This document shows positions 15,933 to 37,077 of a stretch of 37,077 nt of DNA, piece by piece. Every line of letters begins with the position of its first letter. Positions within the stretch are counted from its first letter, which is position 1. The stretch is from an uncultured virus (IMG/VR IMGVR_UViG_3300025759_000001) (lineage: Duplodnaviria; Heunggongvirae; Uroviricota; Caudoviricetes; Crassvirales), in IMG/VR virus record IMGVR_UViG_3300025759_000001, one strand, 5' to 3'. The notes under the pieces are model-generated. The model saw only the letters and a program-made list of their open reading frames with translations. It searched no databases and had not been told where the DNA came from. The translations under genes were made by a program, and so were the position numbers.

Positions 15933-15952
15933 AATTAAAGACGAAAGAGAGA

Positions 15953-16576: not shown

Positions 16577-16594
16577 CCAACAGAGTTTTTTTTT
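16554..16594. terminator. Probable bidirectional terminator between the convergent modules
   Basis: AAAAAAACTCTG ... CAGAGTTTTTTTTT inverted repeat with A7 and T9 flanks; overlaps the HNH stop and lies 24 nt beyond the RNAP stop. Confidence 0.7.
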
Positions 16595-16618
16595 ATTGTC
16601 CACAACTACTTTTAGCTG

Positions 16619-19600: not shown

Positions 19601-22600
19601 TTTTATTTCCTCAGGTGTAAGTTTACCTCTTTCAGCTAATCTACTAACAAGAGCTTTATATTGATTGACACTCTTCTCAGAGAAGTCAACATACCTAATC
19701 ATAGCTCTAGCGTTAGCTGTATTATTAAGCTTATCCATCTCTTCAGTCAATTTCTTATCTAAGTCTTTAACTTCTTGAAATTTAGTTTTCTCACCTTTAT
19801 CTAGACCAGCTTTTTTGAGCTCTTCAGCAGCAATTTCATTCTTAGTACGAGGCTCAATAGCTTGTCTTAAGTTAGATATAGACGATATGATTTGCTCATA
19901 TGTATTATCTAAAATTACCGCTTCTGGATCTTTCTTTTTCTGTCCAAAGTTCTTTTCTTGCTGAGCAAAATTAGATAAATTATCTAATAAATCAGACTTA
20001 ACAGTATTACTCAATAACTCTTTAGTAAGACTTGTAACCTCACTTTGTTTCAAGTTAAAAGTTCTGCGTAAGAAGTCAAAGAACCAATCCTTGAATGCTG
20101 TCCACATACTCTCTTTTTCTTTACTATCCCATATATCAGCACCCTCTCTACCAATTGCAGTAGCTAAAAGTTCTTTCTGGAACATTTCATTATCTAATTC
20201 AGGATACGCTTCCTTAACTTCGTCATATAAAGCAGTTCCTTCAAGGTCTTTTAAAGCTCTCTGAAGCCTTTTATTTTTAAGTCCACCTGGAAATGCATCA
20301 ATGAAAACGTGAGCAAACTCATGTATTGCAGTCGTCTTGAATACAGCTTTTGGATTAATAAGTATAACAGGTTTTCCTGCAGCAATAGTTCTTGGGTCAT
20401 TAGCGGATAATACCCTTGAAGTAGGGATTGTAGGATCCATGATAACTTCTACATTCATGCTTTTTTGCATATGAGCAATCTTAGCATTAAACACACTAAG
20501 CTCTTCAAGAAGGTAATCATTGCTACTAGATAGCATTCTTTCCTCTTGAACTCCATCACTTAAGTCATCAAGTTTAACTTCTGTGTATTGTAATCCAGTT
20601 TGTAAATCAACATCAACTACTACGAACTCACCAGTAATCTGGTCAATCATGTCATATCTCTCGTTCTTATTAATCATCCATAAATGACTATCTAGCATTT
20701 TACCTTTACCTTCAGTTTTGCTATCTTTAATTTCAGCAAACTTAGTCATATTAGTAAAGAATGTTTTAGGAAACTTTCCTCCAGACTTTGAAAGATAATT
20801 TTTAAATGCAGTTATATCATTAGGATCTAATACCATTGTAGATATTTCACGAACATTCTTAGAAGGAGCTGTATCTTTAGTGATAGTAGCTGAGCCCTCC
20901 CAAAATAAAGGATCACTTCTAAGTTCAGACATCACTTTCGTAATCTCTTTATTAATAGCAACAGGTATATTGTTTCCTTCTATTACAGACTTAGCAGGAG
21001 TGTTCTTTTCATTATATTCAAAGATACTTCCTTTACCAGACTTATGTCCTAACTTATGAGTACGAGTGTATATAGGATTCCCTTCTTTTTCTCCTCTAAA
21101 GATAAACAAGGCATAGTTTGGCATTGAAGCATCTCTTTCACTAATATCTACTTTAACAAATTTAGGAAATAATTTTATTCCAGTATCTTTGTCTTCTTCA
21201 AGAGCTATTGATGATTTAGATTCATCACTTATGAATCCTGTTCCATTACTATATGTTCCTCCAAATCCTTTAACTCTATCAAATCTTAATTCAGGAACTA
21301 GCTTGTACCCAATAGTCTTGTTATCCCACTGATGTCTTATCATTTGGTCTTGAAAATCCTCACCTCCAACAATCTTGTCAGCAGTTCTAAACATCTCATC
21401 AATCTCTCTATTAATACCATTCTCCGCAAAAAAGTTATGAGGTATGTGAGCAAAGAATTGATTAAGATTATTGTTAAACCCTGACTGGGAGTAAGCGTAT
21501 CTTATCAAATCTATTCCAAGTTCTTTCTCACTTGGATCAGAAGAATTAAGTAACCTAGACCATGCTCTGTACATTTTATTATTAAAACTCTTAGTTGCAG
21601 CTCTAGAATCTATACCTAAGAATTCATATCCTCCAGAAGAGTCTATTCTTAATTCCTTAACTAGAAAATTAGTAGAACCAGCCTCTTTTAAAGCATGTAT
21701 CTTTTCAGGTAATTGTTTAAATAAGTAATCATGATCAGCATTGTTGTTCTTAAACACAGATAATCCTGACATAGAATAACTTCTAAAAGAAGCTTCTAAA
21801 ACTCTTCCAAGCTCTGGGTCTTTTAATACTCCTTTTCCAAGCGTTATAGATATCTCATTGAAAGCACTTAATACCTCATTCTTACCAACTAAGAATAAAT
21901 CACTAGCTTGTAATATATCACCAACCCACAATACTGCTTGTTTGTAATAATGACCCATCATTGTTTCATTAAGATGCTTACCAGTGAATCCTTTAGTTTC
22001 AAATCCTAGTATTCTTCCAGAATTAAGAACCTCGTTAACTTTGTTCTCAGCAATCTGTCTAGCTACAACTCCACCTCCGTTACCTTTGGTATCAGCTTTT
22101 GCCGCGTTAACAGAAGCGCTAAAAGATTTAGAATGATCTTGTAAGAACTCAAATATATCTAATATCTTACCTTGTTCAATTTTCTGTTCAGTAGTTAATG
22201 GTCCTGTTCTTCTTATAGCAGCCTCCATTTTAGACTCACTTAAACCAGCTACATCTATCTCGTTAGCCTCAGACTCATTCACTTTATACTTTAATCTTAC
22301 ATACTCATAAGGAGTAACAGTCTTTCCTTTACCATCTTTTTGGAATACTAGTCTTTGAGCAGTCTTACCTTCAGACATGTTGATTATCTCAACAAGATCT
22401 TTAAGTATAGGCTGTCCTATAAGTCTATTAACCCATGATATAGGGGCACCTGCGCGTATAAGCATAGATGTTACATTGGATGTAGTTATATTATGATTAC
22501 CTCTAGATATATAAGGATCTTTAGCTATATCAACATATGCATTCAAGAATGCAGATAACACATCACTAACACTATTCTTACCATTTGTATCGTGTGTTCT

Positions 22601-25600
22601 ATCAAATTTAGTATGACCTTTAGAATCTTTATGTCCAATGCCTAAATAACCTTGAAGACTTATATTTAAACTCTGATTAGAAGCGTGATCAACTAATTGA
22701 TTAGCAATCATAGCTACACCAAACTTACCACTTAAGTATTGAAACTTAGTTTTAATTTGTTGTATAGGGCTCATAAACTGAAGAGACTTCATTTCTGGTG
22801 CAGGAAAAAGATCCTGCATGTCATCTTTCAAGAAACCTGCGTCAATTGAAGTCATCATTGCATCATAGGTATGAGGTGACAACAACACACTAGAATATAA
22901 ATCTACTAACATGTTCTGTTTACCTTTCTTAGAATCAGTATTACTTGGTATTTTCTGTATTTTACCATCTTTCACCTCAAGGTGATGAGTCATAACATAC
23001 ATCTTATCAATATCAAAATCTGAACCTGTCTTACCTGGCACCGCATCGTAAGCAATTATACTATCTCCAAGCTCTGGAGGAAGTATACCTACAATTTCTA
23101 AAGCATCATTCGAACTCATACCTTGATTAGGTATCCTATATGAAACCATTTGTAGAGCGCTAGGGTCTAAGATTTCTTTAAGCTTCTCAGCCGTCATGTT
23201 CCATGGCTTGATAAAGTCTGGGTGATCCTCAATCTTGTTAAGATCACCTTTCTCTAATGATCTATTATGCTTATCAATTGTAGCTCTTATTGCACTGTAA
23301 GGCAACATAGCTTGTCCTGGCAATACTTTACCATTTTCTATACGTGGTGGTTTTAAACCTTTACCATCGTAGTTATCACTAACTATTTTTATACCTGATC
23401 TAAGTACTTTAGCTGGTCCTTTACCGGACGAATCTTTTACAATTTCTTGTACAGACTCAAGTCCAAATGGAGATACCTGAATAAAACTACCGCCATTGGT
23501 TTTAACTTTAACAAGTTCTTTGTTAAAAATAGACATAAAGATGCTCTGCACTCTACCTGATAATTGAGGTATTGCATCAAATCTCATTTCCTTCTCTAAT
23601 GCTGAGATGATATTTTCATCTCCACCTCTTGATTTAAATTCATCAATTAGCGCATCATAGACTCCAGTCATGTCAGTAATCTTATTATCTTCTCCTATTC
23701 CAAACCTTTCTTGCAGTGAGGCTCTGCCTTCGCTAACTAAAGAACCAATAGTATCATGAATTAACTCCATAATTTCTCCACCAGTCTTAGGTTCACCATT
23801 CAACTCATAATTAGCATCACCGGATGTTAAATCAATACCAGCTAATATATTTTTCTGAATTTGAGATCCAGTTAAAGTATCATGTATAAGTTTAGTAGGT
23901 AAATCTTGTTGTAACTTCCATCCACCATTAAGTAAAGGTGTTGAATTAAGTTCGAATTCATCCATTAATTCCAGTGTACCTGGCTTATGTATATCTGTAA
24001 TACCCTTTGCTCCAACTTTTACACCATCTCGAGTAATAACCTCATGAAGTTCATCTTTCTTATTCTCATAAGGCTTCTTAGTTGCAGGATCAATAGTCAT
24101 CTTATCATACATCTTCTGCATTGGAGTATTTTTGACTAAACTAGGAACTAGTACAGCTTGAGAATATTTCAAATATACGGGACGTCCCTCATTAATTTCA
24201 AAGTATACACCCTTAAGTGGTTGTGCAGCAAGTTTAAGCTCCTTAGGCTCTAACTCTTTACCTGCCATCATCTTATCAAATACCTTTTCATGCTGAGCAC
24301 CCCATTTACCTAATCTCTCTTTAAGAAACTTCCATCTATGAGGAGTTATCCATGCTTGAGCATCAGTAGTGTTAATGTTCTTATATGCCTCTATTAAGCT
24401 TTTGTCAGTAAGTGAATCTTGAATCTCCTTAATATAAGAAGAAGCAACCTCGACTCCATTAACAGTAGCCTGGTTAAAGTACTTGTGATCATTCTTACTA
24501 AGTCTTAATTGTAGTCCATCAGTATATGTAGCAGGTACACGCTTAATTAAATCACTTTGATTCTTGTAATAAGCTTGGTCACCTGAAAATAACTTAGTAT
24601 ATTCAATTGTAGATATTAATCCATTTACAACATAGTCACCTACCATAGTGTGAATAGGAGATTCTTGTGTCCCATAACTTTCCATCAAGGTGTTATCAAT
24701 AGTAAGTGGTTTCAATTCGCCTTTTGCTTTAGGATTTACTTCTATGATTCTATTTGTTCTTAATTCAACAAGAGTTTCTTTCATCCTGTCTTTAATAGCT
24801 TGTTCAACAAATGGCTTTAATGCTTCTTTTTGAGAACTAGTTAAACCAGTCATTGTAGACTTCTTAGGATGTCCATTCTTATCATATAAGATGGCCTTAA
24901 GTTTAGGCTCAGCTTCAGAAGGATTAAATTCTGGAAATAGTTGAGACTTAAGCGCATTCATGCTTTTAGTATGATAGTGCTCTATCTTTTCTGAATCAGG
25001 TAAGTTAGCTATCTCATCAGCTGCCTCAGACATTCTGTTATACTCATCTTCAAAATAGTCTACAAAGATTTCAATAGTAGCATTATCAATGCTCACACCC
25101 TTCCCTTTAGTATATACTATCCCAGTTTGATGCATGTCAAATCCACCAATATCCATCTTACGGGACTTGTCCGCTGGAACAATAGTAGGAAAGATAGATT
25201 TTTGTAATGTACCTTTCTTACCAAGAATCTTTACCATACTATCATTAATAGCATCAGCAATTGTTATCTTGGTATTGTCAACACCATCATTCTTATTTTT
25301 AGATTTAATAGAACTAGATAGACTTATTTCAACAGATTTTATTCTTTCTAATGATTTTGCTTCTCTTTCACTGTCATTAACTATGTCAGAAGCTAATAAG
25401 AACTTCAACCATCTAGAGTTTTTGTTATATGTTTGACCAGCTAGTTCTTTGATATCAATTGTACTATCATCTCCAGCTTGCTGTTTCCAGGCATTTATTT
25501 TGTTATGTAAATAGCTTAAAGAAGAATAGGTCCAATATGTCTTACCTTCATTACCTACTATTGTATTCTCAGATAATTGTATAGCACTTAATGCTTGAGC

Positions 25601-27196
25601 ACCAGCAACTCTACTTAATACTTTCTGAAAGTCAAATGGATTTTTGAATTCACCAACAGTAGTTACAAAAGGAGATTTCTCATCTTTTATATGCTTCATA
25701 GTTTCCTCCATTCCTTCATACAATGCTTTTACTTCTCCATATCTCTTTTTAGGATCAGCAACTTGAAGTATAAAATTACGCATGTCAAGGCTATTAACAT
25801 TAATACCAAGAGCGTTCATAGCTTGCATTAATATAGGTAGATTCTCACTAATACTTTTTATTTGAGAAGCAGCAGTACCTCTAGTACCAGCTTGTTTAAT
25901 AAACTTATTCTTAGACTCGGTAATTAGATCTGAAATTTGATCTACATCAAGAGCCTTTTTCATCTTACCCTTATTGGTTAAGAACTTTTTTCTAAATCCA
26001 CGTCCCCATTCACCTTTAAGCTTACTAGTTCTAGAGTTAGTAGCAGAAGCGTTGATTACTTTAATATTTCTACCATCAACTTCAGTTACATAATATGTAA
26101 GGCTTGCTTTTGAAAACGCTTGAAAGAATTCAGTGATTTTGTTTCTCTCACCAATCTTATCAGAAGTGTTTAACTCTCTTAACCTATCAGCTAATCCCTT
26201 AGTCCATGGCTTAACTAATTTTAATCCATCAATTTTCTCAACCATAAGGTCAAATACGTCTTGAACATCTCCACCTAAGTTAAAGTTTACTAAATCAGAT
26301 AACATAGGCTCCAATGTAGTCCATACATCATCGAATTCAACAAATTGAGGCTTACCTAGAAACCTACCTGAAACAGTATCAAGTTTAGCTTCAGTCTTGC
26401 CATTATTATTTATATATACACTGCCGTCAGCATTCTTTCTAACAACAACTTCTGAATCTAATACGGTAGATAATAATAATTTTACATTTACAGATGCGCT
26501 ATCTTTAGAGTTCTTTGTGAAGTTTTCAGCAAAGTTCATACCAGTAGATTTATCCTCTTCAGATATTTCACTTTCAGGATTACCCTGCTCATCAGTAAGA
26601 TCTTGAATCTGATCTTTTCTAGCTCCTGCTTTAATACGCTTGCTAGATGTAAGACCCATGTCTTCTATCTGAGTTCTTACTTCAATTATAAAATCTTCTT
26701 TGTATTTTTGGACTAGATCTGCCCGTTGTATTGCGTCAGGATCTCCTGCATTCTCTGACCTGTAAGAGTCAATACTAGATTGTATTGATTCACCTATTTT
26801 AAGACCCTTAATCTCATCAATGTTATTGAAATCAAACCCTTCTTTAGTTGAGAATAATTCATACTTAAGTTGATTAGTAATTTCGTAAACATCATCAGGA
26901 TCTATTTCAGGAAACTTAATTTTATTTAAAAAATGTTTCTTCCCGTCTGCAAGTTTGTAGTAGTGTTCATTACCAGACTTGTATAATTTAGGATAACCAT
27001 TGTCATCCTGTCTTAAAGCACCGTACTTATCAACCCAGTTTGCTTCTTTGTTTCCTTCCCAGTCACCAAATACTTCTTTGAATTCGTCAGATGCAATTTT
27101 ACGTGCCTCTGCATTAGCTAACTCTAGTGTACCTAGAACATCAACCAACTTCTCTTCAAATTTCATGGCGCCTATACAATTCGATTTATTACCCAT
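16619..27196 (-). CDS. Giant virion-packaged RNA polymerase (crAss-like two-barrel type) fused to a zincin-like domain and C-terminal helical region, 3525 aa
   Basis: YRIPNQG and KTGSDFDIDK (catalytic DxDxD, 23003-23020), TDAQAWIT, QPLKGVY, VDIAKDP; HEFAH at 20309-20323; one Cys in the whole protein. Confidence 0.92.
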   Translation of the reverse strand: MGNKSNCIGAMKFEEKLVDVLGTLELANAEARKIASDEFKEVFGDWEGNKEANWVDKYGALRQDDNGYPKLYKSGNEHYYKLADGKKHFLNKIKFPEIDPDDVYEITNQLKYELFSTKEGFDFNNIDEIKGLKIGESIQSSIDSYRSENAGDPDAIQRADLVQKYKEDFIIEVRTQIEDMGLTSSKRIKAGARKDQIQDLTDEQGNPESEISEEDKSTGMNFAENFTKNSKDSASVNVKLLLSTVLDSEVVVRKNADGSVYINNNGKTEAKLDTVSGRFLGKPQFVEFDDVWTTLEPMLSDLVNFNLGGDVQDVFDLMVEKIDGLKLVKPWTKGLADRLRELNTSDKIGERNKITEFFQAFSKASLTYYVTEVDGRNIKVINASATNSRTSKLKGEWGRGFRKKFLTNKGKMKKALDVDQISDLITESKNKFIKQAGTRGTAASQIKSISENLPILMQAMNALGINVNSLDMRNFILQVADPKKRYGEVKALYEGMEETMKHIKDEKSPFVTTVGEFKNPFDFQKVLSRVAGAQALSAIQLSENTIVGNEGKTYWTYSSLSYLHNKINAWKQQAGDDSTIDIKELAGQTYNKNSRWLKFLLASDIVNDSEREAKSLERIKSVEISLSSSIKSKNKNDGVDNTKITIADAINDSMVKILGKKGTLQKSIFPTIVPADKSRKMDIGGFDMHQTGIVYTKGKGVSIDNATIEIFVDYFEDEYNRMSEAADEIANLPDSEKIEHYHTKSMNALKSQLFPEFNPSEAEPKLKAILYDKNGHPKKSTMTGLTSSQKEALKPFVEQAIKDRMKETLVELRTNRIIEVNPKAKGELKPLTIDNTLMESYGTQESPIHTMVGDYVVNGLISTIEYTKLFSGDQAYYKNQSDLIKRVPATYTDGLQLRLSKNDHKYFNQATVNGVEVASSYIKEIQDSLTDKSLIEAYKNINTTDAQAWITPHRWKFLKERLGKWGAQHEKVFDKMMAGKELEPKELKLAAQPLKGVYFEINEGRPVYLKYSQAVLVPSLVKNTPMQKMYDKMTIDPATKKPYENKKDELHEVITRDGVKVGAKGITDIHKPGTLELMDEFELNSTPLLNGGWKLQQDLPTKLIHDTLTGSQIQKNILAGIDLTSGDANYELNGEPKTGGEIMELIHDTIGSLVSEGRASLQERFGIGEDNKITDMTGVYDALIDEFKSRGGDENIISALEKEMRFDAIPQLSGRVQSIFMSIFNKELVKVKTNGGSFIQVSPFGLESVQEIVKDSSGKGPAKVLRSGIKIVSDNYDGKGLKPPRIENGKVLPGQAMLPYSAIRATIDKHNRSLEKGDLNKIEDHPDFIKPWNMTAEKLKEILDPSALQMVSYRIPNQGMSSNDALEIVGILPPELGDSIIAYDAVPGKTGSDFDIDKMYVMTHHLEVKDGKIQKIPSNTDSKKGKQNMLVDLYSSVLLSPHTYDAMMTSIDAGFLKDDMQDLFPAPEMKSLQFMSPIQQIKTKFQYLSGKFGVAMIANQLVDHASNQSLNISLQGYLGIGHKDSKGHTKFDRTHDTNGKNSVSDVLSAFLNAYVDIAKDPYISRGNHNITTSNVTSMLIRAGAPISWVNRLIGQPILKDLVEIINMSEGKTAQRLVFQKDGKGKTVTPYEYVRLKYKVNESEANEIDVAGLSESKMEAAIRRTGPLTTEQKIEQGKILDIFEFLQDHSKSFSASVNAAKADTKGNGGGVVARQIAENKVNEVLNSGRILGFETKGFTGKHLNETMMGHYYKQAVLWVGDILQASDLFLVGKNEVLSAFNEISITLGKGVLKDPELGRVLEASFRSYSMSGLSVFKNNNADHDYLFKQLPEKIHALKEAGSTNFLVKELRIDSSGGYEFLGIDSRAATKSFNNKMYRAWSRLLNSSDPSEKELGIDLIRYAYSQSGFNNNLNQFFAHIPHNFFAENGINREIDEMFRTADKIVGGEDFQDQMIRHQWDNKTIGYKLVPELRFDRVKGFGGTYSNGTGFISDESKSSIALEEDKDTGIKLFPKFVKVDISERDASMPNYALFIFRGEKEGNPIYTRTHKLGHKSGKGSIFEYNEKNTPAKSVIEGNNIPVAINKEITKVMSELRSDPLFWEGSATITKDTAPSKNVREISTMVLDPNDITAFKNYLSKSGGKFPKTFFTNMTKFAEIKDSKTEGKGKMLDSHLWMINKNERYDMIDQITGEFVVVDVDLQTGLQYTEVKLDDLSDGVQEERMLSSSNDYLLEELSVFNAKIAHMQKSMNVEVIMDPTIPTSRVLSANDPRTIAAGKPVILINPKAVFKTTAIHEFAHVFIDAFPGGLKNKRLQRALKDLEGTALYDEVKEAYPELDNEMFQKELLATAIGREGADIWDSKEKESMWTAFKDWFFDFLRRTFNLKQSEVTSLTKELLSNTVKSDLLDNLSNFAQQEKNFGQKKKDPEAVILDNTYEQIISSISNLRQAIEPRTKNEIAAEELKKAGLDKGEKTKFQEVKDLDKKLTEEMDKLNNTANARAMIRYVDFSEKSVNQYKALVSRLAERGKLTPEEIKNIKFFTSVFTMIPDVKQLMLEQYNKGYLKNDNGQKKKRMDVLDKIIADYDTLNQEMLGVSRRIYAKTMVDNSNEHVTVWRTKYEKEYAELEAKNSKPDESIHVWVNEKMIANADTIQAEAFEFYEEQAKKSLSDIHASTGWLVSEKNIANAEIQTVSAMIDAADFEVDRWVQSQAKLVEEAYENFSKAYPSSIGSEERYRKFIDQTDEGSYLISEYNPGFLSKYYEANSWMNRSVYEEKFKGIEISEDGSYTLNGEKKSLHLPSNGLKVEGTHVFYTEAGIVYSMTLEEAIGKTERANWIEANTDSKKTTYGLDIKPKKKLWSNKAYDALSVKDREHLKAMKKMIVDANVLTGGKQSLIEKAGVVDFYRLPGITRSSQARAIAGDLKSLVSDSVTDMFKKKEDEFELEDTGTKAENKGKDSIKRMADLTNKQKFDVPIPFRSKLAKSDQSLDVHTILLMNLKEAKNYEQKKKLEAQVHVMIDVMSNRLIPNHSGLQKLAVMHGFSRDKEIQMHLPKEQLPEDVKTLISIMESRIYGIKEKDAGSAAGVNMQKATTTLLKYSGSVALIGNFVNSFVNATTGTVNNLIEAWGGETYGMKNWKNAGLKYWKDAKGLVGDMGSNTHSSRTNMMLDIFNVLGSRESLNNNFEDNSRLKSMIKTSKLRPIAQGGEHMMQAKVMYAVLDRIKVLNKKGEFLTKDGKVTKDVDKAATLDEVMYFEKDKKGEAHMKLPKWAAATTFSPQPGKQDDILTEARGLIKKKIIDLHGNYDNDLKNQAQREWWGKLLFFLKKWMESTTLRRFRGYATALKASEELRDVDRFYSEDMKQYQEGYYVTAFRFLKHTLPQAVKEFKFEVITGNYKNLSKHEKANIRRITAEFGMMALTLLAYTAMGGFDEEPDDDTLLARYYLRRELSELTFYLNPAETIKLMKNPTASISVIERFTKILGQMTSPTEVYQQGKNEGRLKLWVKTKKAFPWWAQTEKDYKASLRFLQIMD

Positions 27197-27221
27197 TTGT
27201 TTTTATAGCGTTTAAATTTGT

Positions 27222-30200
27222 TTATAATATACAATCCCACTCACCTTGTTCAGTGAAACCTTCGTCTTTATTAGGATCTTCTTCTTTAATTTTTCTTTCT
27301 TTACTTATTTCTTCAGCTTGTTTAGCTTCATTAGCAGACTCAAACTCAATATTTGTTTGCTTAATCTTCATCTCTCTTTCTGCCATCTTGTTTCTAGCTA
27401 TTACTTCATCTTTTGCTTTAAGATCAACTAGTATTTTATTAACCTCAGCAGTCTTGTCTGTAAATATAGCCTTTTCTCTGGTAGAAAGCAAATCATTCGA
27501 CATAATTTTATTAGCAATCTTATTTAACTGCATTTTAGATACGGTGCCATTGTCTACAAACTTCTTCCAGATATCATTTGATATTGGTTCATTACTTTTA
27601 GCTCTTTCTGCAGCGAATCCATCAAAAGATTCATCAAATCCTTCATATTCAGGAGACTCTTTAACAACCCCACTAGTTTGTTGTGTTGGTTCTAAAGCAG
27701 CTATTTTAGCATCATACTTAGTATTGATTTCATTTATTTTTTTAATTGTTTTAGAACTAATTGCTTTATTAAATTCTTCTTTATTTTTTAGATAAGGAGA
27801 AAATTTTGGTTCATACGAGAAATTACCAGCTTCTAATGAACTATAAGTTGGAGTTGTATCTGGTCTATGATTGTCAGAAGTACTCATCAAGCTATAATGC
27901 TTTGAATTCGGCATACTTGCATCACTATCCTTTACAATTATATAGTAAGGATATTGTTTTAACTCAGCTTTTCTTTCAGCTTCTATTTTATCTATTTCAA
28001 CTTTAGCTCTATCTTCTTTAGCTTTTTTAAATTTATCTAACTCAGAATCTCTTGCATCATTTGCCACATCTAAATTACCAACTACTGTTCTACCTTTAGC
28101 CCCATCAAACTTAGAAACAATACCTCTTTTTTCAAGAAGATCCATTATTCTACCAGCTTGCTCGTATCCTATTTGTAGTTTTCTCTGAATTAGAGATGCA
28201 CTAGCACTAGCGGCATCAATGACTATTTTCTTAGCTCTCTCATATAAGCTCTCATCAGTTTCACTATCGGGAACTTCTTTAATGACAGTTGCAGCTTTCT
28301 GAGCAGGAGCATCTAATCTCTCTGCATCATATCTAGCTTTAATAAGTTCTTTAACATGTGCTTCATTCTTTCCGTATACAGGAATTCTATTTCTTTGTTT
28401 ATCAAAGAATACACCGGCAAAGCCTTTTTCTCTTTCATTAACTACACCAGCCTTGTTAGATAGAGCTTCTCTTTCGGAAACTTTCTTATTAACAGCTGTT
28501 GGGTTCTTAGGCACAACCTTTGTTGCCTCAGGAGTTCCGTCAGGTACCTTGAACATAATATCAGACTTGAATGCTCCTAGTTCATTTTCACGACCAATAG
28601 TTTCATTCTCTGAGAAAGTAGTATTTTCAGACCCAACAACAGCATCAGTAGATATAACAGTGTTAAGCATCATTTCTCTGTACTTAGCTCCATAACTACC
28701 ATGGTTCCATTGATTAAGATTCAGCTGACGTCTCTTCTCATTCATTATAAAGCCTATTAAAGCTTCTCTATTATCACCAACATTATCAGGTGTAACAATA
28801 CCTTTAAAACCACCTTCAGTATCAGGGTCTAAACCATATCTAATCCATTCACCACTTAAATGTAAATGTGTGGCTTTACCTGCAGTTTCAGATGTCATAT
28901 GAACAAATAGCTTAGCTACATCCATAACTTTAGCATCTTTACCTAGTACAGCAAATTCATTAGGATGATCTTCTTTAAATGTTTTGAATAAATCAGCATC
29001 ACTACTTAATAATGCTTCTTTTCCAATCTTTTTAAGCATAATAGCTATCAATATATCTGCTACAAAAGTAGACTCTGCTATATTAGGCTTTCTAAGATTA
29101 AGTTTCAATGGAAAAGGATCACCATTAGCCTTAGGAATGTTTAAAAACACTCCGCCTTTATAAGGAACCGGGTTTGTATTATCATCTTGAACACCTATTA
29201 CATCTATTTGTAATCCTTCAAAGTCAGGATGATCAGACTTGTCACTAGCTCTAACTAAAGTGCCGTGCTCATTTGTAACCATTAAGTCAACCTTACCCAT
29301 ACTTCCATTAATAAATGGAAATTGCATTACATTGTTTTCAGGTATAGCGCCATTCTCTTCTTTAATTTCCTGAACATTTAAATTACCACCAAATTGATGA
29401 GTAACTTGTGTTTGAGTATTACCCAAGAACATTTGTCTAATGATATTCTCTCTTTTAGGAAGTTCATTAGTTTTATAAAATGCATTTGTCTTACTATAAG
29501 CAGGTATATGTGACCATATATCATCAGTAAGTTGTATCTTAATAGGAAGATGATTAAATAAAATATCTTTCTCTTCAGCTGTTAATTTTATCTTAGGATT
29601 CTTCTTGGCTTTATTGAATATCTCAATAGCTTGTTGTCCTAGTTTAGAATGTATTCCACCAGGAGTTCCAACAACATAGTCAAGCAATACTGGCTTACCA
29701 TCTTTAGCTCCTGTTTTATCTTTACCATTAAATACCCAGTCTTTCCAGCCTGGTCCATTTAAGTTAGCGTATAAAGGAACCTTGATATTACTACTAACTT
29801 TATCCGTATTAATAGCTCTATCCTTTCCTTTCTCTTGAGACTTAGTAGTCTTAGTTACATTTGTTGAGTCTTCTGCATGCTCATCTTCAATATTATCTGC
29901 AACACTAGCTTTGTTAGCGTTACTTACAGTTGTTGTATTAGCAGATCTAGCAGCTTCTTCAGCTAATCTTTCAGCCTCTCTGGCATCGTCATTAGCATAC
30001 TCTCTTGCAACAGCTTCTTCATTAGCAAGCTCTTCTATGTTTTCATTAACAACAGCTGCATTCTTAATCTTCTCATCTTTAGTTAAAAAATCAGACTCCT
30101 CTATTTCTTTCTGAAGTTCTTGTCCTTGCTCTTCAGTTTCAAGTGGAGTATTAACTCTATGAGTTAGCTCTTGCTTTTTAAGACCTTTTCTATAAGACTC

Positions 30201-32354
30201 TTTACGAATATCTCCATTCTCTGATTGATTAAGTGATATCTCTGCGTTGTTACGCTCCTTAATCATGTAAGCCTCTGTTAGTTCAGCAGTAACGTCTTCA
30301 TCGAAGCCTTGAGCAAGTCTAGCATCTTTTCTTTTTTGTTCAGCATCTCGTGGGTCATCACCTTTGATAGCCTGATAGTCAAGCGTCATCTTAGCAATAC
30401 GCTTCTCATTGTCTTTTATTAATTTCTCAATATGTGGTTTTCTTAACTCACTAACACCTTCTTGTTCAAGTTGTTTCTTAAATGTCTCATTCATTTGAGT
30501 CAAAGCCTTAACCTTCATAAGACCCTCAATCTTTTCCATTTGAGTAGTCGATATAGCACTAGCATTAGGAACTCCATAAGTAACCTTCTGAATCTTTTCA
30601 TCCATCTTGGCAGAGTTCTCTACAAATCTTTTTGTTCTATAATTGTTTTGGGCCATTTTAGCCGCAATGTTAGCATCATACTTATTAGAGAATTTTAAAT
30701 AATCCATCCTCATCTCTTCAGACTTTTTAATAACAGATGGTATATTTTTCTTAGCTAACTCTAGGTTGAAATCACTACCTCCTTGTTCTTTTAAAGCAGC
30801 AGCCTCTTCTTTAGTCATGCTTGCAATACCTTCTAAAGCTTCAATATGTTGATCGAATTTACCGCGATGTAATGAATCAGTAGTCATCATTAACATCATC
30901 TCATCCAATACCATCTCTCTTGCTTCAAGATTGTTGTTATTATCAGCATCTGATAATTTTTGTTGCATAGACATAAAGTTACGAGCTCTATCATTTAGAG
31001 TCGTAGCATATGTTTTCTCATATTCTTTTTCAAAGGTTCTTTTTTTCTTTCCCTTTTTAAGTTCACTCAAACCTTTACCTGCAAAATGAAATAAGTTACC
31101 ACCAAGACCACCAAAGAATGCAGATGTTTTCATTTCATCTGAGCCCATGGCATCTTCCATTATTTCGTCATACTTTTCCCTTGTAATAATCCCAGCATTA
31201 AGATCAGCCATAGCTTTGGCATTCTCAGCAATTAAGTATTGATAAGATTCTTCAGCACCTTCTGAAACGAAAGTACCTACTCCACCTGAAACTTTTTGCA
31301 TCCAAGGTTTCATTTTAACTCCAAGACCTCTACTAGATGCTTTAGACAAAGCATTCTCCATCCTACTAGTGTGAGGATTGAATATCTTACCAAGTGCTAG
31401 ATATTGAGGAATATCTTGTAATAACATGGCCCAACCTTTATTATAGTTATCAGACGCAGCTGTTGATGCTATTTGAGTAGCTTTCTCTTCTGTGAAAGGT
31501 AAGCCTGTTTCTTTATCTATTTTATTTAATAACTCTTCACGTTTAGATTCAAATGTACCGGATGCTTCCATAGAGTTTTCTATGTGTCTAGATACAACAG
31601 CTTGGGATATACCCTCTGTCATCCATGTAGACTTTTTACCCATGTTTTCAGCAACATCTAGTACGCGAGAAAATTTTCCACCAAGCTTTGAAGCTCCCTT
31701 ACCTAGAAATCCTAAAGCTTTAGTTGCAGCCATAGAAGGTATAAGCATGCTTAATGTACTAGCAACAGATACTCCGTTACTGAACCACCATCCTGAATCA
31801 GAAGGATCGAACTTACCAGGTGCTTTTTGATGAATAGCCATAGCGTCTTGTCCCCATGTTCTTAACCCTTTACCAGCATCTGTCATAAAGTTTCCCCACT
31901 CAGTCTCGTTACCAGTCATGTAATCCATAACACTGCCTAAGTCAAGTAAGTAACCTAATCCTTCAACAGTACCACCAATTATCTCACCAACAACAGCTTG
32001 ACCAATCATATTACCAGCTTGTTGCCATCCTGATTGTAACTCACCACGACGTCTATTTAATTCTTCAACGCCACCAGTAGGCATAAATATAGTACTACCA
32101 AGATAATCAGTGTAATCCTCTACATCTAAACCTTCGTACCTGTTATCCTCCATGATACTAGGACCGTCGTCTACAATTGAAATCTCATCATCTTTAGGAT
32201 CAGTTTTCTCAACCTCGACTGGATCAGTATCAACAATAGATATGTCAGCAGTGTCTTTTACAGGCTCTGTCTTGTCTAATTCAGTGAATTCATTCTCCAC
32301 TACAATAGCATCTGGTGTGCCAGCAAAATCTTGATTATTCTGTGTTTCCGCCAT
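27222..32354 (-). CDS. Large virion cargo/ejection protein (1710 aa) with an internal FtsK-gamma domain
   Basis: Directly upstream of the vRNAP; Gly-rich hydrophobic helices in the N-terminal quarter, long charged helical region, FtsK-gamma at 28080-28256, one Cys. Confidence 0.78.
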   Translation of the reverse strand: MAETQNNQDFAGTPDAIVVENEFTELDKTEPVKDTADISIVDTDPVEVEKTDPKDDEISIVDDGPSIMEDNRYEGLDVEDYTDYLGSTIFMPTGGVEELNRRRGELQSGWQQAGNMIGQAVVGEIIGGTVEGLGYLLDLGSVMDYMTGNETEWGNFMTDAGKGLRTWGQDAMAIHQKAPGKFDPSDSGWWFSNGVSVASTLSMLIPSMAATKALGFLGKGASKLGGKFSRVLDVAENMGKKSTWMTEGISQAVVSRHIENSMEASGTFESKREELLNKIDKETGLPFTEEKATQIASTAASDNYNKGWAMLLQDIPQYLALGKIFNPHTSRMENALSKASSRGLGVKMKPWMQKVSGGVGTFVSEGAEESYQYLIAENAKAMADLNAGIITREKYDEIMEDAMGSDEMKTSAFFGGLGGNLFHFAGKGLSELKKGKKKRTFEKEYEKTYATTLNDRARNFMSMQQKLSDADNNNNLEAREMVLDEMMLMMTTDSLHRGKFDQHIEALEGIASMTKEEAAALKEQGGSDFNLELAKKNIPSVIKKSEEMRMDYLKFSNKYDANIAAKMAQNNYRTKRFVENSAKMDEKIQKVTYGVPNASAISTTQMEKIEGLMKVKALTQMNETFKKQLEQEGVSELRKPHIEKLIKDNEKRIAKMTLDYQAIKGDDPRDAEQKRKDARLAQGFDEDVTAELTEAYMIKERNNAEISLNQSENGDIRKESYRKGLKKQELTHRVNTPLETEEQGQELQKEIEESDFLTKDEKIKNAAVVNENIEELANEEAVAREYANDDAREAERLAEEAARSANTTTVSNANKASVADNIEDEHAEDSTNVTKTTKSQEKGKDRAINTDKVSSNIKVPLYANLNGPGWKDWVFNGKDKTGAKDGKPVLLDYVVGTPGGIHSKLGQQAIEIFNKAKKNPKIKLTAEEKDILFNHLPIKIQLTDDIWSHIPAYSKTNAFYKTNELPKRENIIRQMFLGNTQTQVTHQFGGNLNVQEIKEENGAIPENNVMQFPFINGSMGKVDLMVTNEHGTLVRASDKSDHPDFEGLQIDVIGVQDDNTNPVPYKGGVFLNIPKANGDPFPLKLNLRKPNIAESTFVADILIAIMLKKIGKEALLSSDADLFKTFKEDHPNEFAVLGKDAKVMDVAKLFVHMTSETAGKATHLHLSGEWIRYGLDPDTEGGFKGIVTPDNVGDNREALIGFIMNEKRRQLNLNQWNHGSYGAKYREMMLNTVISTDAVVGSENTTFSENETIGRENELGAFKSDIMFKVPDGTPEATKVVPKNPTAVNKKVSEREALSNKAGVVNEREKGFAGVFFDKQRNRIPVYGKNEAHVKELIKARYDAERLDAPAQKAATVIKEVPDSETDESLYERAKKIVIDAASASASLIQRKLQIGYEQAGRIMDLLEKRGIVSKFDGAKGRTVVGNLDVANDARDSELDKFKKAKEDRAKVEIDKIEAERKAELKQYPYYIIVKDSDASMPNSKHYSLMSTSDNHRPDTTPTYSSLEAGNFSYEPKFSPYLKNKEEFNKAISSKTIKKINEINTKYDAKIAALEPTQQTSGVVKESPEYEGFDESFDGFAAERAKSNEPISNDIWKKFVDNGTVSKMQLNKIANKIMSNDLLSTREKAIFTDKTAEVNKILVDLKAKDEVIARNKMAEREMKIKQTNIEFESANEAKQAEEISKERKIKEEDPNKDEGFTEQGEWDCIL

Positions 32355-34623
32355 TTTGTTTCTTTAAGTCTTTTACTAATTCTTCATACAAATACGTAGC
32401 CATATCTGCCTCTCCAAACAACTCTCTTGATTGGAATTCTCCAACTTTTATTCTCCAGACATCTCTGGAACCAACTTGAGCCTTAACCCAAGAAATTGGA
32501 GTTTCAACTCCTTTTATTTTTATATTCTTACCTTGCACTGTTCCTTCAATATTGCCACTTCTTATTTCAGAAGCTTTAATCTTAGGCATGTATTCTGCAC
32601 TGGCAATCATCTTTCTGCCTTTAGCAGCTAATCCTGGGTCACTAGAAACAGCTAGTTCTTTTCCAGCACTAAGTTGTGTTGATTTACCAAGATCTCCTCT
32701 TGTTATAGTTTTAACCTCTATTACAGATCCATTCTTATCCTTAACAACTAAGTGCTCAATAGGATATCCTTTTTCATCATGTCCATCAGTTACCCTAACA
32801 TCATAATCAACTTTAGCTTCACCAGTACTTGGATCCGGTGGATAAGTCTCAGACAAGTAAGAGAACATATCTTTACCTGAATAAGCTTCTGAATAACCTG
32901 ATCCCTTAAATCCATCACTCAATACTTCATTCAATCCACCAATCTTACTTGAGTACTTACCATTATTAAGAGCACTGAATTCTGTATATGACTCAGAGTA
33001 TAAGTTCTGACTAGACTCTAAATGCTTTCTTACGAGATCATTAGCTCTACTTTTAATATCATCAAATGATTCCCAAGCCCCTCTAGGATCTAATTCATTT
33101 CCAACAAATCTGTTAGTTATATTCTTTTTATCTAAATAATGCCTAAGTAACTCATCAGATTTATTTACCGGAACAATATTATAATTACCAGTTTTATTAT
33201 TTAATACTCTCCCTTCTCCAGTTATATCTAAATCATCAGGATTAACCCCAAGCTTAATAAGCTCTTTTTCTAAGTAGTCAACTTTAGTAGCTTCATCTTG
33301 AGTTCTAAGCTCACTTATTTGTTCAGCAAATTCGTATTCTTTCTTTTCTTCATCTGTAAAACCTTCTAACGCTTTAGTTTCAACTCTATTAATAAGGTTG
33401 TTTAATTTATGATACTTTACTTTAGAATCATTAAGTTCTTTTTTAGCTTGTTCAAAAGCAACAGGATTAGACTTTCTTCTAGCTTCAAATTCATCTTTCT
33501 TGGCTTTATCAAAGTTAGGGTCAAGCATTTGTTCATCAGTTCCCCAAAATGCATTATTTTCTGATGTCTGTCTCTCAAGCTCATTAAGGGCCAATCCTGT
33601 ATTTTCTTTAATTTCATCAATATTATCAGGTGTAACTGTGGTAAGAACACCATTAGCAGCTCTAACCAGATCAGCAGCTTCTCTAGCATCAAGTCCTCTT
33701 TCGTGTAACTCTTTAGCTGCTGTATCAGTATTAAAGTGATATTTTAAACTTTGCTCTCTAGATTGCCCACCTGCAGCGGCTCCAAATAGTTGTCTACCAA
33801 ATTGATTACCTGGAATAAATACATCTTTCTTAGTTCCGTCAGCTCTATATCTAACTTCCCACTTACCTATATTTCTAGCATCACCTGCATTAGGGTCAAA
33901 GAATTGTTGTTGTTTCAATGAGGCCTGTAAATCAGGATCATTAGAAGCCATAGTGGTTAAGGAAGACATAATCTTATTGAAATCTCTTTCTTTTATTATA
34001 CCAGAAGCATAAGCCTGTGTAAACTGATCTAAGTTACCTGTATATTTCATTGCATCTTGCGAGGCATCTGCCTGTACAAGCTTTAAATTTTTGTTAATCC
34101 AATCATTAGTACCAACTTTAGTAGATAGGCCAGTTCCTGAAAACTGTTTAAAATTACCTAACTCATCAAAAGAACTACCAAAATCACTTACTTGCTTTGT
34201 AGCCCATACTTTTGCCTCTTGTGGTGACCAACCTGCTTGTGATATTTTCTTAGTGGCAAGATCATTTATATATTTCTGTGCAGAAGTGTAATTAGCTTTA
34301 GCTTGACCTACAACGCCAGAAGCACCGAAAGATTTCTTTTGAGATGATCTCAATTTACGAAGCTTATTTGACAAACCTCTGTCTACTCCACGATCCATCA
34401 AATCTTTGGATATCTGCTCAGATTCCTTTCTGATTCTTTCTAATTCTGCATCAACAACACCTGCATCACCTTCAAGTCTTTTTGTCTCAAGAGCCTCTAG
34501 CTCATCAGTTGCAGCCAATGAAGCATCTTGCCTAGCTTGTTTAGCTAAAGGCACTGCCATTATCTCATCTAGAGAAAGACCTTTAAATCCTGCTGTTGTT
34601 ATGTTACTAAATCTATTTGCCAT
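32335..34623 (-). CDS. Putative virion cargo/ejection protein (762 aa)
   Basis: In the cargo cluster, Cys-free, largely helical and charged; stop overlaps the start of the next gene. Confidence 0.7.
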   Translation of the reverse strand: MANRFSNITTAGFKGLSLDEIMAVPLAKQARQDASLAATDELEALETKRLEGDAGVVDAELERIRKESEQISKDLMDRGVDRGLSNKLRKLRSSQKKSFGASGVVGQAKANYTSAQKYINDLATKKISQAGWSPQEAKVWATKQVSDFGSSFDELGNFKQFSGTGLSTKVGTNDWINKNLKLVQADASQDAMKYTGNLDQFTQAYASGIIKERDFNKIMSSLTTMASNDPDLQASLKQQQFFDPNAGDARNIGKWEVRYRADGTKKDVFIPGNQFGRQLFGAAAGGQSREQSLKYHFNTDTAAKELHERGLDAREAADLVRAANGVLTTVTPDNIDEIKENTGLALNELERQTSENNAFWGTDEQMLDPNFDKAKKDEFEARRKSNPVAFEQAKKELNDSKVKYHKLNNLINRVETKALEGFTDEEKKEYEFAEQISELRTQDEATKVDYLEKELIKLGVNPDDLDITGEGRVLNNKTGNYNIVPVNKSDELLRHYLDKKNITNRFVGNELDPRGAWESFDDIKSRANDLVRKHLESSQNLYSESYTEFSALNNGKYSSKIGGLNEVLSDGFKGSGYSEAYSGKDMFSYLSETYPPDPSTGEAKVDYDVRVTDGHDEKGYPIEHLVVKDKNGSVIEVKTITRGDLGKSTQLSAGKELAVSSDPGLAAKGRKMIASAEYMPKIKASEIRSGNIEGTVQGKNIKIKGVETPISWVKAQVGSRDVWRIKVGEFQSRELFGEADMATYLYEELVKDLKKQNGGNTE

Positions 34624-37076: not shown

Positions 37077-37077
37077 C

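What the first reader, a model, noticed from the sequence alone, without database searches (positions are those of the whole stretch)
28080..28256. Host-type FtsK gamma (KOPS-reading winged helix) domain inside a virion cargo protein
Seen: DESLYERAKKIVIDAASASASLIQRKLQIGYEQAGRIMDLLEKRGIVSKFDGAKGRTVV follows the FtsK/SpoIIIE gamma consensus (D.LY..A...V......S.S.LQR.L.IGYNRA.RI...LE..GIV....G.K.R.V). No FtsK motor ATPase is recognisable in the protein. The SLIQRK and AGRIMD variants resemble Bacteroidota FtsK as I recall it. The usual GYNRA is GYEQA here, changing residues of the putative recognition helix. Known: gamma reads polar KOPS/SRS motifs and activates XerD. Inference: a captured host domain delivered at infection could orient or grip the incoming genome, guide the vRNAP to early promoters, or act as a decoy for host FtsK/XerCD.
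Basis: partly seen in the sequence, partly recalled or inferred. Interest (0 to 1): 0.75.

Follow-up and report, generated by a model that had tools for sequence, protein, structure and literature searches.

The report
FtsK-gamma DNA-binding cassette in crassvirus cargo protein
An aquatic crAss-like phage carries a small DNA-binding domain of the kind found at the end of the bacterial chromosome pump FtsK, inserted as an optional, swappable cassette in a giant virion protein encoded next to its injected RNA polymerase; this is a real example of a known theme, and its function is untested.

Summary
Window 28080-28256, read on the minus strand, encodes aa 1367-1425 of a 1710-aa ORF (27222-32354, -). 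This stretch is a clear FtsK_gamma domain: Pfam gives 73.5 bits against a cut-off of 30.6, and the AF2 model matches solved FtsK-gamma structures. The protein has no FtsK motor.

The ORF belongs to the crassvirus cargo module. It lies after the muzzle, C1-like and gp69/gp68-like genes and just before the vRNAP. It is homologous to phi14:2 gp67, a virion protein by MS/MS.

The domain sits 14 nt inside a sharply bounded variable cassette (aa ~1363-1587).
- It is absent from the closest orthologues (66-70% identity over the matched part), including a complete 98-kb genome.
- It reaches the Pfam cut-off in only 6 of 77 homologues.
- Two proteins with 99% identical cores differ by a clean 208-aa insertion that carries it.
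- Other homologues carry NADAR, a 2OG-Fe(II) oxygenase, DUF7831 or an ART-PolyVal-like module in the region C-terminal to the core.

Residues needed for KOPS reading and XerD activation in E. coli are kept (R, R, D, E). The GYEQA change falls at the family's most variable position. Descent from Bacteroidota FtsK is only weakly supported and, if true, old (52% identity to the host consensus). No polar k-mer was found.

The best reading is an accessory dsDNA tether in a polyvalent-type ejected protein. Iyer et al. 2017 already listed the FtsK wHTH in such proteins. An earlier scan note (e1-6020887) reached the same reading on another genome.

The parts
28080..28256 (-). FtsK_gamma winged-helix domain, aa 1367-1425. 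Helices at aa 1367-1381, 1386-1393 and 1397-1409 (recognition helix YEQAGRIMDLLEK), then the wing.
   Evidence: Pfam 73.5 bits; PDB phmmer; AF2 model; Foldseek top matches all FtsK gamma
27594..28269 (-). Variable cassette (aa ~1363-1587) that carries the gamma domain. It is followed by a long helix, a low-confidence stretch and an INTKYDAKI helix.
   Evidence: DNA homology to two 66-70% orthologue loci (L002, L003) stops at window 28270 and resumes at 27593/27581. Protein alignment. AF2 model of aa 1240-1710 shows folded beads between low-pLDDT linkers.
27222..32354 (-). 1710-aa cargo-type virion protein (phi14:2 gp67 / crAssphage gp45-type 'RNAP-associated protein'). Conserved core aa ~70-1360, variable slot, conserved C-terminal domain.
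27702..27728 (-). INTKYDAKI motif (INAKYDAEL-like) inside the variable region
   Evidence: Regex hit in P0001 and 15 of 77 homologues. Conserved DNA island in L002/L003.
27357..27614 (-). Conserved C-terminal helical domain (aa ~1581-1666), shared with close orthologues
   Evidence: Alignment; pLDDT 86-93 in the AF2 model
28311..28496 (-). Small alpha/beta domain (aa ~1287-1348) at the end of the conserved core, just before the cassette
   Evidence: AF2 model, pLDDT 85-90; conserved in orthologues
16619..27196 (-). 3525-aa virion RNA polymerase ORF directly downstream: gp66-like vRNAP (DFDID at aa 1393) fused to a gp65-like RNAP-associated part
   Evidence: blastp to phi14:2 g066, E 3e-175; DFDID motif; C-terminal part vs g065, E 3e-119
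32335..34623 (-). 762-aa upstream gene with weak similarity to phi14:2 g068 (structural protein)
   Evidence: blastp E 1.7e-5
34829..36391 (-). 520-aa upstream gene, homologue of phi14:2 g069 (structural protein), with a weak crAss_CARG1 hit
   Evidence: blastp E 2.9e-49; Pfam crAss_CARG1 21 bits, below cut-off
36393..37077 (-). C-terminal part of a 630-aa cargo-protein-1-like gene (complete in G002)
   Evidence: The full ORF in G002 (L089:8005-9897) hits crAss_CARG1 at 66.9 bits. Window/G002 correspondence.

Best explanation
Shown: this is a genuine FtsK-gamma winged-helix domain without any translocase motor. It is embedded as a separately folded bead in the variable C-terminal slot of a giant crassvirus virion protein of the gp67 / 'RNAP-associated cargo' type. 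That protein is encoded between the other cargo genes and the virion RNA polymerase. The domain is an accessory cassette that has been gained, lost or swapped repeatedly among orthologues.

Inferred: the protein is packaged and ejected ahead of, or together with, the genome, as its homologues are thought to be. The gamma bead then binds double-stranded DNA through helix 3 and the wing. With one gamma per chain, useful affinity would come from the several cargo copies per virion, because three gamma monomers bind one KOPS in FtsK. The most likely target is the phage's own DNA. Binding would tether the cargo/vRNAP assembly to the incoming genome, or coat and shield it in the first moments of infection. 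This is the role Iyer et al. proposed for DNA-binding domains of polyvalent proteins. Because the cassette is optional, it modulates infection (efficiency, host- or defence-specific fitness) rather than being required for delivery.

Identity and architecture: about 0.9. The DNA-tether mechanism: about 0.4.
For: - Domain identity and fold.
- Functional residues mapped onto E. coli numbering from the alignment: R1289->R1391, R1300->R1402, E1303->D1405, E1306->E1408. These are the majority residues of the family (253, 154, 219 and 258 of 282 domains). R1300/E1303/E1306 are the 'KOPS-blind' positions (PMC2680272, passages read). R1289 is the key XerD contact, and the XerD contacts are a subset of the DNA contacts (PMC5052618, sections 4 and 5 read).
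- Cargo context: blastp and synteny to phi14:2 g070-g066. g067 is annotated as a virion structural protein from MS/MS. The N-terminal third matches crAssphage 'RNAP associated protein' genes (22 records). The same phage in G002 has Crass_capsid, ring proteins 1-4, muzzle (670 bits) and CARG1 (66.9 bits) upstream. PhiCrAss001 virions hold C1, C2 and three RNAP-associated proteins as cargo (PMC10172136, passages read).
- Cassette nature: sharp DNA breakpoints 14 nt before the domain. FtsK_gamma is over the cut-off in 6 of 77 homologues and below it in 1. It is absent from all 7 nearest orthologues (P0003-P0009) and from the complete DTR genome G003. P0023 and P0024 have 99% identical cores and differ by a 208-aa insertion that carries gamma.
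- Other payloads C-terminal to the core in homologues: NADAR, 2OG-FeII_Oxy_2, DUF7831, and a sub-threshold ART-PolyVal (E 8.8e-6).
- Bead-on-string model.
- The FtsK wHTH is listed among rare dsDNA-binding domains of polyvalent proteins (PMC5512222, section 27 read).
- The gamma-bearing allele recurs at 99+% identity in contigs of 4 further runs from 4 studies.
Against: - No DNA target was found. No genome-polar 6-8-mer exists in about 66 kb of this phage: at k=8, 0 same-sign pairs with min|z|>=2 against 67 transcription-polar ones. The test has low power, and a motorless binder need not use polar sites.
- A single gamma monomer binds KOPS weakly in FtsK (PMC3384302, passages read).
- Virion presence and ejection of this protein rest on homology only. 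Direct homology to PhiCrAss001 gp47 was not seen (0 of 22 records).
- Absence from a complete sister genome shows that the domain is dispensable.
- Recognition-helix positions vary among the 7 cargo gammas while they are invariant in 76 host FtsKs. This could mean relaxed constraint rather than retargeting.
Confidence: 0.5

Rival explanations
1. Host-directed effector. The ejected gamma engages the host Xer/FtsK system. It could bind XerD through the retained R1289-type arginine and so activate or titrate it. Or it could occupy host KOPS-type sites and disturb FtsK loading, chromosome dimer resolution or division.
For: R1391 (equivalent to R1289) and the alpha2-loop-alpha3 surface are kept (PMC5052618 sections 4-5). 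There is weak phylogenetic affinity to Bacteroidota FtsK, the likely host phylum. An isolated gamma fused to XerC or XerD is enough to activate recombination (PMC5052618).
Against: R1289 is kept in 253 of 282 gamma domains whatever their context, and it is also a DNA contact, so it does not discriminate. The domain is only 29/56 identical to the very uniform Flavobacteriaceae FtsK gamma, and it differs at 1296/1297, which are invariant in the 76 host sequences. Crassviruses are not known to integrate, and no recombinase was seen among the window or G002 ORFs scanned by Pfam. No benefit to a lytic phage is evident.
Confidence: 0.15
2. Intravirion or assembly role. The domain binds the packaged genome inside the capsid. 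This would position or retain the cargo protein near the portal, or help its encapsidation. It would then have no role after ejection.
For: FtsK_gamma is fused to the small terminase in Bacillus phages Sam46/Sam112, which is a packaging-stage use (PMC8190038, passages read). Crassvirus cargo lies in a capsid zone in contact with DNA (PMC10172136, passages read).
Against: Close relatives package an orthologous protein without the domain. The conserved C-terminal domain and the core are better candidates for packaging signals.
Confidence: 0.15
3. Passenger module with no selected function. The cassette is a by-product of frequent recombination in a hypervariable linker and is on its way to loss.
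For: Patchy distribution (6 of 77 over the cut-off). P0025 has a decayed copy (24.7 bits, below the cut-off). Recognition-helix positions vary among cargo copies. A complete sister genome lacks the domain.
Against: The fold-defining and DNA-contact residues are intact, and the Pfam score is high (73.5 bits; 80 bits in P0015) despite about 40% divergence between cargo copies. The same allele occurs unchanged in contigs of runs from several studies and years. The slot elsewhere holds plausible effector domains.
Confidence: 0.15

Closest known systems
Gamma subdomain of FtsK/SpoIIIE translocases (Pfam PF09397; PDB 2J5P, 2J5O, 2VE8, 2VE9, 5DCF)
   Same: Same fold and family. It keeps the R1289, R1300, E1303 (as D) and E1306 equivalents.
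   Different: No alpha/beta motor, linker or membrane domain. It is internal to a 1710-aa phage virion protein rather than C-terminal. N1296->E and R1297->Q. Identity is 36-38% to the solved chains and 52% to the Flavobacteriaceae consensus.
FtsK wHTH domain in polyvalent proteins of phages and conjugative elements (Iyer, Burroughs, Anand, de Souza, Aravind 2017; PMC5512222, section 27 read)
   Same: A large multi-module protein encoded among virion genes and predicted to be delivered with the DNA. The FtsK wHTH is listed there as a rare dsDNA-binding module. A relative's slot holds an ART-PolyVal-like module.
   Different: That paper does not mention crAss phages (0 occurrences of 'crass'). 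Here the scaffold is the crassvirus gp67-type cargo protein next to the vRNAP, and only one Pfam-recognisable module is present in this copy.
Crassvirus cargo / RNAP-associated virion proteins (phi14:2 gp67; crAssphage gp45-type; PhiCrAss001 cargo set, PMC10172136)
   Same: Sequence homology to phi14:2 g067 and to the N-terminal part of crAssphage gp45-type proteins. Same gene order: muzzle, C1..., this gene, vRNAP.
   Different: No gamma-domain hit in phi14:2 or in the gut crAssphage homologue records, which matched other parts of the query only. Gut crAssphage homologues are annotated with a zincin protease instead. 'FtsK' does not occur in PMC10172136.
Small terminase with N-terminal FtsK_gamma in Bacillus phages Sam46/Sam112, and standalone phage FtsK_gamma genes (PMC8190038; PHROG 13700 and five others)
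   Same: A phage-borne gamma domain without a motor, presumed to read DNA. Its role is stated there to be unknown.
   Different: Different carrier (TerS or small standalone proteins, often with 2-4 tandem gammas) and different stage (packaging) compared with a virion cargo protein.

Membership tests
FtsK_gamma domain family (PF09397) | Match to the family HMM above the curated cut-off | tested here: met
   73.5 bits vs 30.6, E 1.1e-20
FtsK_gamma domain family (PF09397) | Three-helix winged-helix fold superposable on solved FtsK gamma | tested here: met
   AF2 model. The 12 best listed Foldseek matches are FtsK gamma, TM on target 0.75-0.90.
FtsK_gamma domain family (PF09397) | Residues needed for KOPS reading (R1300, E1303, E1306) and XerD activation (R1289) | tested here: met
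   R1402, D1405, E1408 and R1391 by the alignment. Column counts. Residue roles from PMC2680272 and PMC5052618.
FtsK_gamma domain family (PF09397) | Sequence-specific binding of a polar 8-bp motif | tested here: inconclusive
   No genome-polar 6-8-mer in about 66 kb. Power is low, and binding itself is not testable with these tools.
FtsK/SpoIIIE DNA translocase | RecA-type motor (FtsK_SpoIIIE PF01580, FtsK_alpha PF17854) | tested here: not met
   No such Pfam hit at E <= 0.01 in the 1710-aa protein
FtsK/SpoIIIE DNA translocase | N-terminal 4TM membrane anchor | tested here: not met
   No FtsK_4TM hit. The highest 19-residue hydropathy is 1.48.
Crassvirus virion cargo / RNAP-associated protein (gp67 type) | Sequence homology to characterised members | tested here: met
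   phi14:2 g067: blastp E 5.9e-17 over aa 868-1241. crAssphage gp45-type: E to 2e-18 over aa ~77-403.
Crassvirus virion cargo / RNAP-associated protein (gp67 type) | Position in the muzzle - cargo - vRNAP gene block of a crassvirus | tested here: met
Crassvirus virion cargo / RNAP-associated protein (gp67 type) | Physical presence in virions and ejection into the host | not testable with these tools
   Known only for the homologue phi14:2 g067 (MS/MS note in the record) and for the PhiCrAss001 cargo set (PMC10172136)
Polyvalent proteins (Iyer et al. 2017) | Two or more modules of the polyvalent repertoire in one polypeptide encoded with virion genes | tested here: inconclusive
   Only gamma is recognised in this copy. 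Homologues carry NADAR, 2OG-FeII_Oxy_2, DUF7831 or a sub-threshold ART-PolyVal C-terminal to the core. Gut homologues are annotated with a zincin protease.

The most novel reading that the evidence does not exclude
The cargo gamma domains have been retuned to DNA words of the phage itself or of its host's defences. The evidence for retuning is that their recognition helix varies, while it is invariant in 76 host FtsKs. On this reading they act as a first-minute specificity or shielding factor. One version: they load the ejected vRNAP assembly on the leading end of the genome. Another version: they occupy sites that host gamma-guided effectors would otherwise read, i.e. an injected DNA-level anti-defence decoy. 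Gamma is found fused to TIR, Mrr-type nuclease, Schlafen/AlbA and DUF4062 modules among the nearest relatives.
Probability: 0.1. Interest if true: 0.7.

Novelty: new member of a known kind. Interest (0 to 1): 0.35.

Why it matters
Crassviruses are among the most abundant phages, yet what their ejected proteins do in the first moments of infection is largely unknown. This locus shows that the gp67-type cargo protein has a sharply bounded slot in which small modules are exchanged between near-identical phages. The modules seen C-terminal to the core are an FtsK-gamma DNA binder, NADAR, an AlkB-like oxygenase and an ART-PolyVal-like domain. That makes the slot a natural catalogue of 'what is worth injecting'. 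It also offers natural plus/minus pairs for testing. The gamma cassette itself is a compact, testable DNA binder. On its own, however, it is an instance of a theme already described for polyvalent proteins, so the finding is useful rather than surprising.

Tried and rejected
- Whole-genome access: none is held for this window. I worked from the virus records G001/G002, which hold the same phage at 99.99-100% identity, and from G003/G004.
- Earlier-notes look-ups by place and by sequence gave nothing.
I compared window 1-16600 with G002 1-49650, whose genes run in opposite directions. Same-sign (genome-polar) skews are far weaker than transcription-polar ones. For min|z|>=2 the counts are: k=6, 4 vs 227; k=7, 5 vs 201; k=8, 0 vs 67. 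No KOPS-like candidate emerged, but power is low.
- Base composition across 26500-29500 shows no anomaly at the domain (GC 0.38-0.40 against 0.23-0.41 around it). It says nothing on recent transfer.
- Large tree (138 rows x 56 columns): unresolved, with 3 starred branches of 135. The AU test on that set did not finish in two 300-s runs. I replaced it with a 42-row subset chosen partly at random, where monophyly of the cargo gammas is not rejected (p-AU 0.133). P0025 and one long-branch row were left out of these trees.
- The genome-contig scan is biased, because candidates had to share an exact 8-residue word with the query. The 76:4 Bacteroidota:Bacillota split is therefore not a fair sample of phyla.
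- Pfam on the P0005 insert: nothing credible (DUF6075, E 0.037).
- Expression: no RNA holder listed.
- Population variants: contigs of 4 runs showed no joint across the cassette. Contigs cannot show absence of rare variants.
- Contigs of the gamma-bearing orthologues (P0015, P0017-P0023) were not fetched, since the look-up tool for encoding contigs is closed. Their neighbourhoods and genomes were therefore not examined.
- Supplements of the papers cited were not opened.
Full report
OBSERVATION. The plus strand reads through stops. It is aa 1367-1425 of a 1710-aa ORF, 27222-32354 (-). Pfam assigns it to FtsK_gamma (PF09397) with E 1.1e-20 and 73.5 bits against a cut-off of 30.6, covering profile positions 3-61 of 63. 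No other Pfam family is found in the protein at E <= 0.01, so there is no FtsK motor, alpha domain or 4TM anchor. Six PHROG families match the same stretch; one of them (phrog_13700) is annotated 'FtsK/SpoIIIE-like protein'. phmmer against PDB sequences returns six distinct sequences, all FtsK gamma or constructs containing it. An AF2 model of aa 1355-1435, built with 21 short gamma proteins as the alignment, gives three helices and a wing (mean pLDDT 75.7, about 88-90 over the helices). Its 12 best listed Foldseek matches in the PDB (ranks 1-13; rank 12 not shown) are all FtsK gamma chains, including the KOPS-bound 2VE9 (TM on target 0.75-0.90).

WHAT CARRIES IT. The window belongs to a crassvirus. 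The same phage is held as virus records G001 and G002 (99.99-100% identical over 29-34 kb). Upstream of the window's end, G002 encodes a Crass_capsid protein (547.8 bits), tail ring proteins 1, 2 and 3/4, the auxiliary capsid protein, a muzzle protein (670 bits) and a 630-aa protein with the cargo-protein-1 domain (66.9 bits). Then follow, all on one strand:
- a 520-aa gene (phi14:2 g069-like, E 2.9e-49);
- a 762-aa gene (weakly g068-like);
- the 1710-aa gene;
- a 3525-aa gene whose first ~2060 aa match the phi14:2 gp66 virion RNA polymerase (E 3e-175) and contain DFDID.

The 1710-aa protein matches phi14:2 g067 over aa 868-1241 (blastp E 5.9e-17). The GenBank record annotates g067 as a virion structural protein from MS/MS. 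Its N-terminal third matches the 'RNAP associated protein fused to zincin protease' genes of gut crAssphages (22 records). PhiCrAss001 virions carry C1, C2 and three RNAP-associated proteins as cargo, thought to be ejected partly unfolded (PMC10172136, passages read). So 'virion cargo protein' is well supported by homology and synteny, though not shown for this phage. I did not detect direct similarity to PhiCrAss001 gp47.

THE DOMAIN IS AN OPTIONAL CASSETTE. The word-indexed protein search found 77 homologues. They share a core of about aa 70-1360 and differ after it. Pfam on all 77 gave these results:
- FtsK_gamma over the cut-off in 6 (P0015, P0017, P0018, P0019, P0022, P0023);
- FtsK_gamma below the cut-off in 1 (P0025, 24.7 bits);
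- another domain C-terminal to the core in 3 (2OG-FeII_Oxy_2 in P0020, DUF7831 in P0056, NADAR in P0070);
- nothing in 67.

The seven closest homologues (P0003-P0009, 66-70% identity over the matched part) all lack gamma. P0009 ends before the slot. In the others the alignment is colinear up to '...KAATVIKEVP' and again from '...ISNDIWKKF', with unrelated sequence of very different length between. At the DNA level, similarity of the window to two such loci stops at window 28270, which is 14 nt before the domain, and resumes at 27593 or 27581. G003, a complete 98,436-bp genome with terminal repeats that encodes the 69% orthologue, has no FtsK_gamma anywhere. In a second lineage, P0023 and P0024 have 99% identical cores and differ by a clean 208-aa insertion that contains gamma. 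The slot of P0007 gives a sub-threshold hit to ART-PolyVal (E 8.8e-6, 27 bits vs 31.2). An AF2 model of aa 1240-1710 shows folded beads separated by low-confidence linkers: a small alpha/beta domain, gamma, long helices and a C-terminal helical domain. In P0001 and P0015 gamma sits at the same place and is followed by a similar 'DKIEAER-AEL' helix. In the P0017-P0023 group it lies about 200 residues further on.

ORIGIN. The exhaustive HMMER search of 1.84 billion representatives found 11,455 proteins at E <= 1e-3, 374 at <= 1e-10 and none at <= 1e-30. The highest identity among the 150 listed is 57%. All 150 contain FtsK_gamma. Only 21 have the FtsK_SpoIIIE motor. Most are proteins of 74-260 aa, often with two to four tandem gammas, and some are fused to DUF4236, Mrr_cat, SLFN_AlbA_2, TIR_2, DUF4062, DnaJ or receiver domains. 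Taken domain by domain, the best matches to ours are true FtsKs of unknown taxon and standalone gammas at 56-59%, the same as the cargo gamma of P0015 (59%).

A scan of one genome per prokaryotic species required an exact shared 8-residue word and is therefore biased. It kept 80 loci: 76 Bacteroidota (66 Flavobacteriaceae) and 4 Bacillota. In all of them the match lies in the C-terminal region of its reading frame, which is ~740-850 aa (FtsK-sized) wherever the contig does not cut it short. Identity to ours is 45-56%. The Flavobacteriaceae gamma is nearly invariant, and ours shares 29 of 56 positions with its consensus. A 42-row tree (56 columns, quick IQ-TREE) places all seven cargo gammas with the Bacteroidota FtsKs in one group at SH-aLRT 84. 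The P0017-P0023 set is nested among Flavobacteriaceae FtsK (92), and our domain sits with P0015 in the sister group (89). A single origin of the cargo gammas is not rejected (p-AU 0.133). The 138-row tree is unresolved. Descent from Bacteroidota FtsK is thus plausible but weakly supported, and if true it is old. Base composition gives no signal.

FUNCTIONAL RESIDUES. I mapped E. coli numbering from the alignment to 2J5P. This is my own mapping; it is consistent with the residue types named in the papers. R1289->R1391, N1296->E1398, R1297->Q1399, R1300->R1402, E1303->D1405, E1306->E1408. R1300A/E1303A/E1306A is the 'KOPS-blind' triple (PMC2680272, passages read). R1289 is the main XerD contact, R1297A behaved like wild type, and the XerD contacts are a subset of the DNA contacts (PMC5052618, sections 4 and 5 read). 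Across 282 gamma domains, our residues at 1289, 1300, 1303 and 1306 are the majority ones. Position 1296 is the most variable (A108, S48, G35, N32..., E6), and position 1297 is R201, K33, Q13. So 'GYEQA' is a real but in-family variant at a likely specificity position. Among the seven cargo gammas, positions 1296, 1297, 1299 and 1300 vary, whereas they are invariant in the 76 host FtsKs.

MECHANISM. Shown:
- a motorless, intact gamma winged helix;
- located in a cargo-type virion protein;
- within a swappable slot.

Inferred:
- It binds dsDNA. A single gamma binds weakly, because three monomers bind one KOPS (PMC3384302), so avidity would have to come from the several cargo copies per virion.
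- The most economical role is to tether or shield the phage's own DNA at or just after ejection. Iyer et al. proposed this for DNA-binding modules of polyvalent proteins, and they already list the FtsK wHTH among rare ones (PMC5512222, section 27 read).
- Because a complete sister genome lacks the domain, it cannot be essential for delivery or for promoter choice by the vRNAP.

All strong skews follow transcription direction. The test has low power, and a binder without a motor need not use polar sites. Rival readings are XerD/KOPS interference in the host, an intravirion packaging role, or a neutral passenger. None is excluded.

POPULATION DATA. The stretch is held by contigs of 23 listed public runs from 13 studies, labelled mostly freshwater with some marine; 6 of these runs may be the source of the window's DNA. 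In four further runs from four studies, contigs at 99+% identity cover the gamma domain. No contig joins across the cassette. No RNA holder is listed.

LITERATURE.
- 'crAss-like' + 'FtsK' gave 8 papers (7 listed) and 'Crassvirales' + 'FtsK' gave 5 (4 listed). By title and abstract these concern other topics. [quoted passage not shown]
- 'FtsK' does not occur in the PhiCrAss001 atlas.
- Phage-borne gamma is known from small terminase fusions and from standalone genes whose role is stated to be unknown (PMC8190038, passages read).

Within these searches I found no description of gamma in a crassvirus cargo protein. It is not independent evidence, and I re-derived each point here.

VERDICT. This is a real FtsK-gamma domain in a crassvirus cargo-type protein. 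It is a new member of a known kind (DNA-binding modules in polyvalent or ejected virion proteins). It is accessory and function-untested. Interest is moderate to low (0.35). The more useful result is the sharply bounded payload slot of the gp67-type protein.

Noticed in passing
window 16619-27196 (-): The 3525-aa 'vRNAP' ORF is a fusion of two phi14:2 genes. Aa 12-2061 match gp66 (vRNAP, E 3e-175; DFDID at aa 1393). The C-terminal ~1250 aa match gp65, the 'RNA polymerase associated protein', over nearly its full length (E 3e-119), including an HEFAH (HExxH-type) motif.
   Followed up: partly
window 27702-27728 (-); L002 14213-14267; L003 14788-14842 and 15233-15272: An INAKYDAEL-like nine-residue motif recurs in the variable C-terminal region of P0001 and 15 of 77 homologues, including distant ones. 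It is a small conserved DNA island (79-88% identity) inside an otherwise unalignable cassette, and it occurs twice in L003. Short 85-90% matches from otherwise unlike contigs appear in three runs. It could be a junction or recombination module, or a docking or cleavage motif.
   Followed up: partly
P0007 aa ~1549-1645; P0070 aa 1233-1354; P0020 aa 2392-2561; P0056 aa 1809-1918: Other modules C-terminal to the core in orthologous cargo proteins: a sub-threshold ART-PolyVal-like module (E 8.8e-6), NADAR, a 2OG-Fe(II) oxygenase (AlkB-like superfamily) and DUF7831. This suggests an exchangeable injected-payload position.
   Followed up: partly
window 27225-27251 (-): The protein ends in ...EQGEWDCIL. 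Close orthologues end in ...EQGDWDCII. This is a conserved extreme C-terminus after a low-confidence acidic/basic tail, and its meaning is unknown.
   Followed up: no
proteins P0080-P0229: Among the 150 nearest gamma-containing representatives, 129 lack an FtsK motor. Many are 150-260-aa proteins with 2-4 tandem gammas. Some fuse gamma to TIR_2, Mrr_cat, SLFN_AlbA_2, DUF4062, DUF4236, DnaJ or receiver domains. Gamma is therefore a widely reused DNA-reading module, including in defence-like architectures.
   Followed up: no
G002 58287-58834 vs window 1-8003: Identity between the window and record G002 ends at window 8004 / G002 58286. The last 548 bases of G002 do not match the window, which could be an assembly end or a variant junction.
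   Followed up: no
window 7060-8109 (+) and 11963-13867 (+): The replication-side block encodes a MoxR-type AAA+ protein (bpMoxR, 77 bits), an ATP-dependent DNA ligase, an AAA_24 protein, a PDDEXK-like DUF3799 protein and a B12-type ribonucleotide reductase.
   Followed up: no
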